Assembly (NCBI GenBank): GCA_965226065.1
Contig: OZ245332.1
Coordinates: forward strand, 98,206-162,205
Direction of reading: 5' to 3'
DNA: 64,000 bases
Origin: Spirochaetia bacterium
GTDB taxonomy: Bacteria > Spirochaetota > Spirochaetia > WTKD01 > G963693115
Positions 5,254 to 13,407 of this stretch are shown in pieces. Made by a program: the position numbers and the translations under genes. Each line of letters opens with the position of its first letter. Position 1 is the stretch's first letter. The notes under the pieces were generated by a model. It had not been told where the DNA came from. It did not search any database and saw nothing but the letters and a program-made list of their open reading frames with translations.

Positions 5254-6501
5254 TTACATTGTATCTCGCGTGGCTCCGAAACTCAGCAAGTACTCACGAT
5301 AGTACTCGTACTGTGCTCTGCGTGCCTTAAGTTCTGCAGGCAAGCCGATGCTTATGTCGTTCACTAAGGCGTCAAACTTGTCTAAAAGAGACACAATGCG
5401 TTCTTGCACAGGTAGGGGAGGTATGGGGATGGTGAGTTTAGCAACATCTTTTGAATAAACATGAGGAACTCCGCTTCCGCTTTTAAGATTGTGTAATACA
5501 TTTTGACAGTTTTTTAAAAAATGAAAAGCATATTTTGTAAGCAATAAACATTTATTTGTTTTTATTGAAAAGGCATCTGATACAAAAATTTCGGTCGTCC
5601 AATAACTAACAAAACCCGCATACGCACCGCTTCCCGCAATTACAATTGTTTCGCCATCTCTATTTCCTTTGTTATGATAATAGGCCGCTTTTCTGCCACC
5701 TGCAATAACAGGGATGTCACCACTTGAAATATTTTTTTTAGTTATGGATGTTCCTCGCTTAAGTTCCGCAACTTCTCCCAACGCCCTCCACTCCACGTCA
5801 TCGCCAAAGGTGAGAAGCTTCTCACGGTAGTGCTTATACTGCGCTACGCGCGCCTCAAGCTCCGCCTCAAGCTCCGCCTCAAGCTCCGCCTCAAGCTCCG
5901 CCTCAAGCTCCGCCTCAAGCTCCGCCTCAAGCTCCGTGAATGTGTCTAGCACGCCTACAATGTACTCTTGCACAGGTAGGGGTGGTATGGGGATTAGATA
6001 TTTTTTTATATCGTTAAAATTAACTGATGAAAATGTTGCACCAGAAGCTTTACTGGCAAGTACTTGTCCATGTATTTGCATAATATGAAAAAGATATTTG
6101 CTTATAACTTTTTTAGTAGCTTGTATTCCACATAAACCTCTGCCTATACAAATTTTTCTATCAGTATAATTTATTGCCCCTACAGGTGCTCGAACACTCA
6201 TTATTACGTTATGAGCTTCTATAATTTTTGTTATTTTAGAAGTATGCTTTTGAGAGTTAGCAACAACATAGTTAGTAAAATGGGATTTTCCTTGATGAAA
6301 TTCTAAATCATTTTTGTTTGATGAAACAAACTTACCTTCTGGAGATTGTCCCATTATAAGATTAAAGTAATTTATATCCCCCAGCGCTCTATACTCCACC
6401 CCGTGCGGGCAGTGCTCGGCCATCAGCCGTTCCAGCGTATTCATAGTGCACTCATGATGGTTCGCCAATAATCCCGCATAGTCCCATGATATCATGCACA
6501 T
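5254..6501 (-). CDS. hsdS: Type I restriction-modification specificity subunit HsdS (copy 1; TRD-A + TRD-B), with 7 tandem ELEA repeats in the central spacer
   Basis: Two-TRD architecture. Conserved central and C-terminal segments: [10 protein letters not shown]...LD.FTELEA...[15 protein letters not shown] and [51 protein letters not shown]. Seven 12-bp units (cctcaagctccg) at 5853..5936 encode (ELEA)7. No hsdM or hsdR in the window. The start may really be at the MNTL... methionine rather than MCMIS.... Confidence 0.85.
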   Translation of the reverse strand: [415 protein letters not shown]

Positions 6502-6708
6502 GTGTTGGAAGAGACATAGACATGTGTTGAATTGTACACTATTTATATATAACTCCCTTAATGTATCACAATGGTCTTAAATGAATTCCTGCATATTTAA
6601 TAATTTGAGGTTTACAAATGGATTTACATGTATCACGGCAACCTGTCTTTGACCTTTTAAAGTACATTCATCGGTCTATGGGCTATACTCAAACGTAAGG
6701 AGCATCGC
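6502..6708. promoter_or_regulatory. Conserved divergent intergenic leader between hsdS and the TPR-DUF2971 gene (copy 1 of a ~185-bp near-identical element; copy 2 at 13408..13592; partial third copy 15870..15911)
   Basis: 6540..6708 is near-identical to 13420..13592. It ends in ...ggctatactcaaac(g/a)taaggagcatcgcATG, a TATACT -10-like hexamer followed by an AAGGAG RBS. It presumably holds divergent promoters for both genes. Confidence 0.45.
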
Positions 6709-11847: not shown

Positions 11848-12180
11848 ATGCCATCTCCTTTATAAAATAAAATTTGTGAAAGCTGCTTAATATACAAGCA
11901 ACATTTTCAATTATATAAAGTATAGAAAACAAAACACAATAATACAATAGGTAAAATTAAAATGTGATGCAAGCTTGTCCAAGAACCCCATTCCTAAGCT
12001 TCTGCCTACCATACGGAGATGCCCTTATCAGCATACCGTTCTAAGCAATACGCAATATGCCTTTGAACTTTAGGGCACAAGTCCAAGAAGTTTACTAAAT
12101 AAATTTTTAGAGACACCTAGTGATAGCCAACAGCGACACATAGCGTCCTACAACAGAGACATGTATATGATCACGCAAGA

Positions 12181-13407
12181 TTACATTGTATTTCGCGTGG
12201 CTTCGAAACTAAGCAAGTACTCACGATAGTACTCGTACTGTGCTCTGCGTGCCTTAAGTTCTGCAGGCAAGCCGATGCTTATGTCGTTCACTAAGGCGTC
12301 AAACTTGTCTAAAAGAGACACAATGCGTTCTTGCTCTGCAAGGGGCGGTATGGGGATAGAAAACTTATTTATTATTGAAGAATTTATATTATTGATAGTA
12401 GTGCTACAGATACTTTTTTTAAGATATTGCAAGAAATTACCGCTACCTAACAAATAAAAAATAAATTGAGAATTAATACTTTTATTACATCTTATAACTG
12501 CCATAAAGCCACCAAAGTAGTAATCTATATTGTTATTAATATATGCAACTTTTCCTACATGGGCTTTACTTCCACTTGCTACGCTCATAAGAATATCACC
12601 TTTTTTTAACTTTTGCGTATCTTTAATTTTGGTATCTTTAGACACAACTTTAACATCTTCAAAGTTTAATCTATTATTTAATATGTCAATATTATTCGCT
12701 CTTAATATTTTGAAACCACTGTTTAAAGTTGTTTCCTGCGATTTATTGTAAGTAACCCCTCGCACATATTTAGCAATTTCTCCTAATTCTCTATATTCCA
12801 CGTCATGGCCAAAGGTGAGCAGCTTCTCACGGTAGTACTTATACTGCGCTACGCGCGCCTCAAGCTCCGCCTCAAGCTCCGTAAAGCTGTCGAGTATCTT
12901 TACGATTGCTTCTTGCACAGGTAGGGGTGGTATGGGTATGGGCAGTTTGGCAACATCTTTTGAATAAACATGAGGAACTCCGCTTCCGCTTTTAAGATTG
13001 TGTAATACATTTTGACAGTTTTTTAAAAAATGAAAAGCATATTTTGTAAGCAATAAATATTTATTTGTTTTTATTGAAAAGGCATCTGATACAAAAATTT
13101 CGGTCGTCCAATAACTAACAAAACCCGCATACGCACCGCTTCCCGCAATTACAATTGTTTCGCCATCTCTATTTCCTTTGTTATGATAATAGGCCGCTTT
13201 TCTGCCACCTGCAATAACAGGGATGTCACCACTTGAAATATTTTTTTTAGTTATGGATGTTCCCCGCTTAAGTTCCGCAACTTCTCCCAATTCTCTATAC
13301 TCCACCCCGTGCGGGCAGTGCTCGGACATCAGCCGTTTCAGCGTATTCATAGTGCACTCATGATGGTTCGCCAATAATCCCGCATAGTCCCATGATATCA
13401 TGCACAT
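12181..13407 (-). CDS. hsdS: Type I R-M specificity subunit HsdS (copy 2; TRD-B + TRD-C), 2 ELEA repeats in the central spacer
   Basis: Identical N- and C-terminal conserved regions to copy 1. Its first TRD ([28 protein letters not shown]...[14 protein letters not shown]) is the same sequence that forms the second TRD of copy 1; its second TRD is unique. Only two cctcaagctccg units are present. Confidence 0.85.
   Translation of the reverse strand: [408 protein letters not shown]

What the first reader, a model, noticed from the sequence alone, without database searches (positions are those of the whole stretch)
5254..13407. The two hsdS genes share one target-recognition domain in swapped positions, giving >340-bp near-identical direct repeats
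In copy 1 the TRD reading [76 protein letters not shown]...[10 protein letters not shown] is the second (C-proximal) TRD. In copy 2 the same sequence is the first TRD. The unique TRDs (A in copy 1, C in copy 2) occupy the other slot. At DNA level 5440..5790 and 12945..13295 are about 99% identical. The conserved N-terminal, central and C-terminal segments are also identical. This is the classic substrate for TRD reassortment, which yields new type I specificities. Because both genes are in direct orientation, recombination through the shared TRD would delete the intervening ~7 kb (TPR paralog 2, ImmA module, DUF2971 fragment) and create an A+C hybrid hsdS.
Basis: seen in the sequence. Interest (0 to 1): 0.6.

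Follow-up and report, generated by a model that had tools for sequence, protein, structure and literature searches.

The report
Two hsdS genes sharing one TRD

Summary
hsdS1 (5254-6501, minus strand) is N-A-central-B-Cterm. hsdS2 (12181-13407, minus strand) is N-B-central-C-Cterm. TRD B is shared over 396 nt at 97.0% identity (5401-5796 vs 12910-13305), with a 341-nt core at 99.4%. The framework is similar rather than identical: N-terminus 98%, central region 90% with 7 versus 2 copies of a 12-bp LEAE repeat, C-terminus 95.5%.

Both proteins are EcoR124-like (type IC-like) HsdS subunits with an x-TRD1-y-x-TRD2-y layout, and the shared block ends inside x and y. This matches "domain movement" (DoMo), described in Helicobacter pylori in 2011. 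Two related spirochaete contigs carry one TRD (93.8% nt) in different slots at the orthologous locus.

A crossover in B deletes 7,509 bp together with A and C, leaving an in-frame 195-aa single-TRD gene. A and C meet only in the reciprocal 590-aa A-B-C product.

No hsdM, hsdR or recombinase lies in the 64-kb window, so both genes are orphans. This is an ordinary new example of a known kind. Interest is low.

The parts
5254..6501 (-). hsdS1, an orphan type I specificity gene with layout N - TRD A - central helix with (LEAE)x7 - TRD B - C-terminal helix. The longest ORF is 415 aa. The likely start is MNTL at 6444 (396 aa).
   Evidence: ORF listed. Pfam Methylase_S, 2 stretches, E = 7e-45. PADLOC Specificity_I, E = 4.6e-99. 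Translation.
12181..13407 (-). hsdS2, an orphan type I specificity gene with layout N - TRD B - central helix with (LEAE)x2 - TRD C - C-terminal helix. The longest ORF is 408 aa. The likely start is MNTL at 13350 (389 aa).
   Evidence: ORF listed. Pfam Methylase_S, E = 1e-52. Best solved-structure match is the EcoR124II HsdS 7bst_A, E = 3e-33. Identical to public protein P0001.
5401..5796 (-). TRD B copy in slot 2 of hsdS1, including its x and y flanking motifs.
   Evidence: blastn: 396 nt, 97.0%, no gaps, against 12910-13305. Mismatches cluster at both ends, inside x and y.
12910..13305 (-). TRD B copy in slot 1 of hsdS2, including its x and y flanking motifs.
   Evidence: Same alignment as above.
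5995..6378 (-). TRD A (slot 1 of hsdS1, 128 aa), unique to hsdS1.
   Evidence: No match in hsdS2. A-like TRDs at 40-58% identity occur in P0118, P0002, P0010 and P0013.
12358..12780 (-). TRD C (slot 2 of hsdS2, 141 aa), unique to hsdS2.
   Evidence: No match in hsdS1. It is 75% aa identical to slot 1 of P0034 in the related locus L009, with dN/dS 0.19.
5851..5936 (-). 12-bp tandem repeat, 7.2 perfect copies, encoding (LEAE)7 in the central coiled-coil helix of hsdS1. It sits at the position of the EcoR124 TAEL repeat.
   Evidence: TRF: period 12, 100% matches. Relatives carry 2-4 copies.
12856..12881 (-). The same 12-bp repeat, 2.2 copies, in hsdS2.
   Evidence: TRF.
5208..5430 (-). Shared C-terminal conserved region plus 46 nt of 3' flank. 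The hsdS2 counterpart is 12135-12357.
   Evidence: blastn: 223 nt, 95.5%.
6387..6996 (.). Shared N-terminal coding region, leader, intergenic region and 5' end of the divergent TPR gene. The counterpart is 13293-13880. This shows that the whole hsdS / TPR-5' module was duplicated.
   Evidence: blastn: 610 nt, 90.3%, one gap.
5601..13109 (.). The 7,509-bp interval lost by an equal crossover in TRD B (example crossover point). It holds the 5' part of hsdS1 (N-A-central), TPR2, a DUF285 remnant, ImmA/M78 and its partner, a DUF2971 fragment, an RCC1 fragment, and the 3' part of hsdS2 (central-C-Cterm).
   Evidence: In-silico deletion and translation. Reciprocal product. Gene content.

Best explanation
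These are two paralogous, intact, orphan specificity (HsdS) genes of an EcoR124-like (type IC-like) type I restriction-modification family. They sit in a repeat-rich defence island of an uncultured spirochaete.

The whole hsdS / TPR-5' module was duplicated. Afterwards one target-recognition domain (B) was copied between slot 1 of one gene and slot 2 of the other. The transfer went by homologous recombination or gene conversion at the short internal repeats x and y that flank every TRD. This is the 'domain movement' (DoMo) mechanism described for Helicobacter pylori. The likely direction is S2 to S1.

If both subunits are used by an HsdM/HsdR encoded elsewhere, they should direct two bipartite methylation/restriction motifs that share the B half-site. 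In S2 it would be the 5' half. In S1 it would be the reverse-complemented 3' half. The gaps should differ because S1 has 7 LEAE tetrads and S2 has 2.

The direct repeats are passive substrates for RecA-type recombination. A crossover in B deletes 7,509 bp and leaves a 195-aa single-TRD gene, which by analogy with truncated EcoDXXI/EcoR124 subunits could homodimerise and read a palindrome of the B half-site. The reciprocal product is a three-TRD A-B-C gene.

What is shown: gene structures, identities, breakpoints, in-silico products, swapped slots in related loci, and purifying selection.
What is inferred: direction of transfer, a trans-acting HsdM/HsdR, the motifs, and the activity of the products.
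For: - Domain calls and family. Methylase_S x2 in both proteins. PADLOC Specificity_I. The best PDB hit is the EcoR124II HsdS, with the central and C-terminal helices aligned.
- Shared TRD in swapped slots. 396 nt at 97.0%, with a core of 341 nt at 99.4%.
- Layout and breakpoints. The x-TRD-y-x-TRD-y layout is present, and the mismatches marking both ends of the B block fall inside x and y.
- Module duplication. It extends through the leader, the intergenic region and the TPR 5' end.
- Relative age. B has dS 0.04 and the C-terminal framework has dS 0.108, which is consistent with B being the more recent exchange.
- Older arrangement. The B+C arrangement of S2 recurs at 50-58% identity in distant taxa (P0003, P0007, P0012), which suggests S2 is the older combination.
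- Same process at the orthologous locus. L009 (C'+D) and L072 (E+C') share a TRD at 93.8% nt over 500 nt in slot 1 versus slot 2. Their 5' flanks are conserved at 88% and Mrr_cat at 93.6%.
- Slot flexibility. B-like and C-like TRDs occupy either slot across many homologues, and P0004 is B+B.
- Selection. dN/dS is 0.19 for TRD C between S2 and L009.
- Recombination products. A natural 192-aa single-TRD HsdS (P0348) is 59.6% identical over 188 aa to the predicted deletion product. Natural three-TRD and four-TRD HsdS proteins exist.
- Literature. DoMo, one-TRD and three-TRD derivatives, and S genes at loci without R/M are described in PMC3077401. The TAEL repeat/gap rule and homodimeric half subunits are described in PMC3874165.
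Against: - No hsdM or hsdR occurs anywhere in the 64-kb window, nor within 10 kb of the orthologous hsdS in L009 and L072. Activity of either subunit is therefore unproven.
- S1's 7-tetrad helix lies outside the 2-4 range seen in relatives. It is 12 aa longer than its C-terminal partner helix, so S1 may be impaired.
- The surrounding region is full of gene fragments (DUF285, RCC1, DUF2971, methylase remnant), so decay is plausible.
- No population or strain data could be obtained for this locus. The sister-strain locus L071 stops inside the TPR3 homologue.
- S1 is absent from the public protein collection although S2 is present.
- The promoter scan was uninformative.
- The direction of B transfer rests on few substitutions.
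Confidence: 0.8

Rival explanations
1. One reading: recombination through the shared TRD deletes about 7 kb and creates a new A+C hybrid specificity gene.
For: The copies are long (396 nt), near-identical and direct, so deletion by homologous recombination is plausible.
Against: Gene order and slot positions make the deletion product N-B-Ct (195 aa). A and C lie inside the deleted interval. No single crossover in any shared block yields A+C. A and C co-occur only in the reciprocal 590-aa A-B-C ORF.
Confidence: 0.03
2. Programmed or high-frequency specificity switch. The direct repeats would drive reversible excision/reintegration or amplification, as at the pneumococcal tvr locus. A clone would then cycle between half, two-TRD and three-TRD HsdS forms. 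The 12-bp array would add gap-length variation.
For: Several direct repeats lie in the locus (B, N-terminus, C-terminus, central region, plus the 463-nt DUF2971 repeat). There is a perfect 7-copy 12-bp array. All predicted products are in frame. Natural half and three-TRD HsdS proteins exist. Excision-reintegration at a type I locus is documented for S. pneumoniae (PMC6265443, listed, not read in detail).
Against: No recombinase gene was found among the ORFs scanned across the first ~24 kb of the window. No significant inverted repeats were found. The two B copies have accumulated 12 differences and the framework has 5-10% divergence, so frequent exchange has not homogenised them. No population data are available.
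Confidence: 0.08
3. Decaying relics: the orphan hsdS genes have no partner methyltransferase, and the similarity is just left over from a duplication in a degenerating island.
For: There is no hsdM/hsdR in 64 kb. Neighbouring genes are fragments. S1's repeat expansion lies outside the family range. S1 is missing from the public protein collection.
Against: Both ORFs are intact over about 400 codons. dN/dS is 0.19-0.28. Orthologous orphan hsdS genes are intact in two related genomes. A Helicobacter homologue with the same B+C arrangement is also an orphan. The DoMo paper reports S genes at loci without R/M that are presumed to work with R/M encoded elsewhere. A plain duplication does not explain B sitting in different slots.
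Confidence: 0.12
4. Assembly artefact: the second copy or the swapped arrangement results from misassembly of a repeat-rich region.
For: The relatives come from low-coverage long-read metagenome contigs (about 2-8x). The region is highly repetitive.
Against: The copies differ at 12 positions and sit in different unique contexts (A vs C, Mrr_cat vs RCC1 fragment). Both reading frames are intact. S2 is identical to an independently catalogued protein.
Confidence: 0.03

Closest known systems
DoMo (domain movement) in Helicobacter pylori type I S genes, Furuta et al. 2011, PMC3077401
   Same: - The gene layout is x-TRD1-y-x-TRD2-y.
- One TRD sequence sits in slot 1 of one gene or allele and slot 2 of another.
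[quoted passage not shown]
- One-TRD and three-TRD derivatives arise by recombination at the repeats.
- S genes occur at loci without linked R and M.
- All these structural features are seen here.
   Different: - The host is an uncultured spirochaete.
- The two genes are direct paralogues 7 kb apart in one genome, rather than alleles compared between strains.
- The shared block is the whole TRD at 97-99% nt, so the TRD itself, and not only x/y, is now a recombination substrate.
EcoR124I/EcoR124II/EcoDXXI (type IC) HsdS
   Same: - It is the best solved-structure match.
- A 12-bp, 4-aa tandem repeat sits at the same place in the central helix.
- In EcoR124 the copy number sets the gap (N6 vs N7). 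Truncated one-TRD subunits homodimerise and read palindromes.
   Different: - The repeat is LEAE, not TAEL.
- S1 has 7 copies, against 2-3 in the characterised enzymes and 2-4 in the relatives sampled.
- No hsdM/hsdR is linked, and no complementation data exist, so type IC membership is only by HsdS sequence.
Orphan or stacked hsdS genes working with HsdM/HsdR encoded elsewhere (Lactococcus lactis plasmids; H. pylori group 2/3 S loci; S. aureus)
   Same: These are extra hsdS genes without adjacent hsdM/hsdR. Recombination between hsdS copies makes chimeric specificities. A Helicobacter homologue with the B+C arrangement is likewise an orphan.
   Different: Here the partner genes have not been seen at all, because only 64 kb is available. 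The genes are chromosomal and sit in a defence island next to TPR-DUF2971 genes.
Inverting hsdS shufflons (S. pneumoniae SpnD39III/ivr, Mycoplasma pulmonis hsd loci)
   Same: Several hsdS copies share conserved segments, which allows TRD reassortment.
   Different: Those systems use inverted repeats and a dedicated recombinase beside hsdM/hsdR. Here the repeats are direct, no significant inverted repeat was found and no recombinase gene is nearby.

Membership tests
Type I R-M specificity subunit (HsdS, Pfam PF01420) | Two TRDs, each matching the Methylase_S profile | tested here: met
   Two stretches in each protein, E = 7e-45 and 1e-52. PADLOC Specificity_I, E = 1e-91 to 1e-99.
Type I R-M specificity subunit (HsdS, Pfam PF01420) | Central and C-terminal conserved helices that form the coiled-coil spacer | tested here: met
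   Residue-level alignment to the EcoR124II HsdS covers both helices. The y and helix motifs are listed.
Type I R-M specificity subunit (HsdS, Pfam PF01420) | Works with linked hsdM and hsdR genes | tested here: not met
   No N6_Mtase/HsdM or HsdR/ResIII gene was found among the ORFs scanned, which include every ORF of at least 400 aa in the 64-kb window. The rest of the genome could not be reached.
Type I R-M specificity subunit (HsdS, Pfam PF01420) | Directs bipartite m6A methylation or restriction | not testable with these tools
   This needs methylome or biochemical data.
Type IC family (EcoR124/EcoDXXI/EcoPrrI) | HsdS conserved regions resemble those of EcoR124 | tested here: met
   7bst_A is the best PDB hit at E = 3e-33. 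EcoKI (IA) is weaker at 9e-23 and matches only one TRD.
Type IC family (EcoR124/EcoDXXI/EcoPrrI) | Tetra-amino-acid tandem repeat in the central conserved region | tested here: met
   (LEAE)7 in S1 and (LEAE)2 in S2, encoded by perfect 12-bp repeats.
Type IC family (EcoR124/EcoDXXI/EcoPrrI) | Genetic complementation or antibody cross-reaction with type IC HsdM/HsdR (the original definition) | not testable with these tools
   No partner genes are available, and this is an experimental criterion.
DoMo (domain movement) | Layout x-TRD1-y-x-TRD2-y with repeated flanks | tested here: met
   x = VE[YW]RxLG[ED] and y = IPIPPLxxQE flank all four slots.
DoMo (domain movement) | The same TRD sequence in slot 1 of one gene or allele and slot 2 of another | tested here: met
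   TRD B: S2 slot 1 vs S1 slot 2, 97-99% nt. TRD C': L009 slot 1 vs L072 slot 2, 93.8% nt at the orthologous locus.
DoMo (domain movement) | Homology breakpoints fall in the flanking repeats | tested here: met
   Mismatch clusters at 5419-5440 (y) and 5782-5789 (x) bound the identical core.
Inverting phase-variable hsdS shufflon | Inverted repeats between hsdS copies | tested here: not met
   Both genes are on the minus strand. The only inverted pair found is a 40-nt, 78% match that looks like chance.
Inverting phase-variable hsdS shufflon | Adjacent site-specific recombinase | tested here: not met
   No integrase/recombinase domain was found in the 20 ORFs scanned across the first ~24 kb, 576-24565.
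SSR frameshift phase variation of hsdS (Atack et al. 2019) | Repeat unit not divisible by three, so that copy changes shift the frame | tested here: not met
   The unit is 12 bp, so all copy numbers stay in frame. Such repeats were excluded from that survey.

The most novel reading that the evidence does not exclude
The pair could act as a deletion/duplication-based specificity generator in a spirochaete lineage that keeps hsdS as a conserved orphan in a defence island. Crossovers in TRD B and slippage of the 7-copy 12-bp array would yield subpopulations with different forms: a half HsdS reading a palindromic B site, two-TRD forms, three-TRD A-B-C forms, and forms with unusually long gaps. All would be served by a distant, or even non-canonical, methyltransferase.
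Probability: 0.07. Interest if true: 0.5.

Novelty: new member of a known kind. Interest (0 to 1): 0.2.

Why it matters
This adds a spirochaete example of TRD domain movement. It shows the process both within one genome and between orthologous loci of related genomes.

It gives a clean, testable methylome prediction. There should be two motifs that share one half-site in opposite positions and have different gaps.

It corrects the expected recombinant. The deletion product is a half gene, and the reciprocal product is a three-TRD gene. This matters for anyone designing junction PCRs or read searches.

Beyond that it does not change what is known about type I systems.

Tried and rejected
- Exact-sequence look-ups of window proteins found nothing. 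These were S1 and S2 with either start, P0001, PGK, Mrr_cat, ImmA and TM2. The source contig could not be walked to look for hsdM/hsdR.
- The genome-contig scan and the metagenome-contig scan returned only distant HsdS relatives (at most 49% identity). No isolates of the same species were found.
- A framework-only protein query returned only short (266 aa or less), unrelated-lineage HsdS proteins. It did not return sister-strain alleles. It was useful only for finding natural half subunits.
- The sister-strain locus L071 (about 98% nt identity) ends inside the TPR3 homologue, so its hsdS region was not seen.
- A link between hsdS and the divergent TPR-DUF2971 gene was considered and rejected. 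In L009 and L072 the divergent neighbour is a pentapeptide-repeat gene.
- An inversion shufflon was rejected, because there are no inverted repeats and no recombinase.
- Promoter and terminator scans were no better than shuffled controls.
- Structure prediction was not run, because the EcoR124II alignment already fixed the domain boundaries.
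Full report
**Observation**

The window holds two intact ORFs on the minus strand: hsdS1 (5254-6501, 415 aa) and hsdS2 (12181-13407, 408 aa). Both begin with the same leader, and the likely true start is MNTL at 6444 and 13350. Each has two Pfam Methylase_S stretches and strong PADLOC Specificity_I hits.

- blastn and blastp show that the second TRD of S1 equals the first TRD of S2. 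The match is 5401-5796 vs 12910-13305: 396 nt, 12 mismatches, no gaps, 97.0%.
- The core, 5441-5781 vs 12950-13290, has only 2 mismatches in 341 nt (99.4%).
- The other two TRDs, A (5995-6378) and C (12358-12780), have no counterpart in the other gene. The two TRDs within each protein show no detectable similarity to each other.
The true offset is 7509.
- The framework is not identical. The N-terminus is 98.3% over 115 nt. The C-terminus plus 46 nt of 3' flank is 95.5% over 223 nt. The central region is 89.9% over 109 nt.
- The central region also carries a perfect 12-bp tandem repeat (CGCCTCAAGCTC, encoding LEAE). It is present in 7.2 copies in S1 (5851-5936) and 2.2 copies in S2 (12856-12881).

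**What the genes are**

The best solved-structure match of S2 is the EcoR124II specificity subunit (7bst_A, E = 3e-33). The alignment runs through the central helix, the second TRD and the C-terminal helix. The 12-bp repeat lies where EcoR124I and EcoR124II carry two or three TAEL repeats. That repeat number sets the gap of the recognition site, N6 versus N7 (PMC3874165). The framework is therefore type IC-like by HsdS sequence.

Every TRD slot is flanked upstream by x (VE[YW]RxLG[ED]) and downstream by y (IPIPPLxxQE). This gives the layout x-TRD1-y-x-TRD2-y. The mismatch clusters that bound the identical B core fall inside x (5782-5789) and y (5419-5440). The shared block is thus a TRD with its flanks, not framework.

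**Context**

- No hsdM or hsdR is present in the 64 kb. All ORFs of at least 400 aa, and most of the smaller ones, were scanned. Beyond about 23 kb the window is housekeeping (GAPDH, PGK, CarAB, ClpB, FtsK, trigger factor, ClpX).
- No recombinase gene lies near the hsdS pair, and no meaningful inverted repeat was found.
- The first 20 kb look like a repeat-rich defence island. It contains three TPR proteins whose DUF2971 C-termini match PADLOC candidate PDC-S31, an Mrr_cat protein (PDC-S02), an ImmA/IrrE protease (capP-like), and a GmrSD_N+HNH protein that matches a 'REase_II' model over its full length. It also contains several gene fragments.
- The duplicated module runs from the 3' flank of hsdS through the leader and intergenic region into the 5' end of the divergent TPR gene (6387-6996 vs 13293-13880, 90.3%).
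- The organism is an uncultured spirochaete. The best named PGK relatives are Sphaerochaetaceae and Alkalispirochaetaceae at 59-64% identity.

**Related loci**

S2 is identical to public protein P0001. S1 is absent from the protein collection.

Two related contigs carry the orthologous locus, again with a single orphan hsdS and no hsdM/hsdR within 10 kb. Neighbouring Mrr_cat and DUF285 genes support the orthology.

- L009 carries P0034, with layout C'-D.
- L072 carries P0062, with layout E-C'.
- Their C' TRDs are 93.8% identical over 500 nt but sit in slot 1 and slot 2 respectively. The 5' flank is 88% conserved and Mrr_cat 93.6%.
- S2's TRD C is 75% aa identical to L009's slot-1 TRD, with dN/dS = 0.19.

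Across 120 homologues, B-like and C-like TRDs occur in either slot, and P0004 carries B-like TRDs in both. The B+C combination of S2 recurs at 50-58% identity in distant taxa. One of these, from a Helicobacter genome, is also an orphan.

A sister strain (L071, about 98% nt identity) was found, but its locus ends inside the TPR3 homologue.

**Mechanism**

The anatomy matches 'domain movement' (DoMo). That mechanism is described as TRD sequences moving between slots, and between loci, by recombination at the x/y repeats. It also produces one-TRD and three-TRD derivatives, and it occurs in S genes at loci lacking R and M (PMC3077401).

B shows lower synonymous divergence (dS 0.04) than the C-terminal framework (dS 0.108). 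This suggests that B was exchanged after the module duplicated, probably from S2 into S1. This step is an inference and rests on few sites.

**Recombination outcomes (the main correction)**

On the minus strand the order is S2 (N-B-cen-C-Ct) and then S1 (N-A-cen-B-Ct). In-silico crossovers give the following products.

| Crossover site | bp deleted | Product |
|---|---|---|
| TRD B | 7,509 | in-frame 195-aa N-B-Ct, single TRD |
| C-terminal block | 6,927 | S2-like gene |
| N-terminal block | 6,906 | S1 |
| Central block | 7,005 | B+B |

- No deletion gives A+C.
- The reciprocal product of the B crossover is a 590-aa A-B-C three-TRD ORF.
- Both kinds of product have natural counterparts. P0348 (192 aa) is 59.6% identical over 188 aa to the predicted half gene. 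Proteins of 560-620 aa with three TRDs, and one of 792 aa with four, exist in the databases.
- Truncated type IC subunits are known to homodimerise and read palindromes of one half-site. The half gene could therefore be functional, but this is an inference.

**The LEAE array**

Between the LDxF motif and the R..QY motif, the C-terminal helix has 16 residues, equal to four tetrads. S2's central helix has 8 and S1's has 28. Relatives carry 2-4 perfect tetrads.

S1 is thus an outlier. If the EcoR124 rule extrapolates, it has a gap about 5 bp longer than S2. Alternatively the coiled coil is mismatched and the subunit is impaired. Surveys of phase-variable hsdS genes excluded repeats divisible by three, so such arrays are under-described.

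**Verdict**

- The predicted product is wrong.
- The feature is a new example of a well-described phenomenon in a new lineage.
- The unresolved points are whether a partner HsdM/HsdR exists and whether any rearrangement actually occurs in the population.

Noticed in passing
window 5851-5936 (and 12856-12881): A perfect 12-bp tandem repeat encodes (LEAE)7 in the central helix of hsdS1, against two copies in hsdS2. Sampled relatives carry 2-4 copies. S1's central helix is 12 aa longer than its C-terminal partner helix. This predicts either an unusually long recognition gap or an impaired subunit.
   Followed up: partly
window 3324-3786 and 10909-11371: A second long direct repeat (463 nt, 98%). 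It is the DUF2971 C-terminus of TPR1 against a free-standing DUF2971 fragment (10855-11394). A crossover here would delete 7,585 bp, including Mrr_cat, hsdS1, TPR2 and the ImmA module.
   Followed up: partly
window 1197-3812, 6709-8661, 13593-15512 (fragment at 10855-11394): Three paralogous proteins combine many near-identical 102-nt TPR repeats with a C-terminal DUF2971 domain. That domain matches the PADLOC phage-defence candidate PDC-S31. TPR2 and TPR3 are each divergently paired with an hsdS. The pairing is not conserved in related contigs, where a pentapeptide-repeat gene takes that place.
   Followed up: partly
window 930-1145; L071 2310-3176; window 17495-18580: The window holds only a 71-aa N-terminal remnant (70% identity) of an EcoRI-methylase-family gene. 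That gene is intact (288 aa) in the sister strain, two genes upstream of the GmrSD_N+HNH gene. The GmrSD_N+HNH gene matches a PADLOC 'REase_II' model over its full length (E = 2e-143) and is intact in both strains.
   Followed up: partly
window 8738-9898 and 11413-11847: There are gene remnants between the two hsdS genes: DUF285/BspA-like fragments and a 114-aa RCC1 fragment. The corresponding genes are intact in the related locus L009 (RCC1 of 984 aa at 11717-14671). The interval therefore looks like a rearranged version of an ancestral order hsdS-RCC1-DUF285-Mrr_cat.
   Followed up: partly
L009 10025-10524 and L072 10586-11085: Two related spirochaete contigs carry one TRD (93.8% nt over 500 nt) in slot 1 versus slot 2 of the hsdS at the orthologous locus. 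The hsdS frameworks differ, and the L072 one is more EcoR124-like.
   Followed up: yes
proteins P0005, P0006, P0008, P0014 (562-595 aa) and P0002 (792 aa): Natural HsdS proteins with three or four TRD/helix units exist in public data. They covered 99% of an artificial A-B-C query.
   Followed up: partly
window 5254-6501: hsdS1 is absent from the 5.8-billion-protein collection, although hsdS2 (P0001) is present in it, on a 1.85-Mb contig. The reason is unknown. Possibilities are that the gene was called a pseudogene, that it differs in the deposited assembly, or that the catalogue is incomplete.
   Followed up: no
window 6666-6784, 13550-13667, 15869-15987; 15280-15800 vs 16827-17315: Further short dispersed repeats (93-97% and 92%) lie around the TPR gene starts and downstream of TPR3. 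An equivalent of the hsdS/TPR intergenic element occurs twice in L072 (122-288 and about 6374-6560).
   Followed up: no
window 9913-10398 and 10402-10845: An ImmA/IrrE (Peptidase_M78) gene has a capP-like PADLOC hit. It sits with an upstream 147-aa partner that has no convincing family match (one weak, sub-threshold Tetraspanin hit). Both lie inside the interval that the TRD-B crossover would delete.
   Followed up: no
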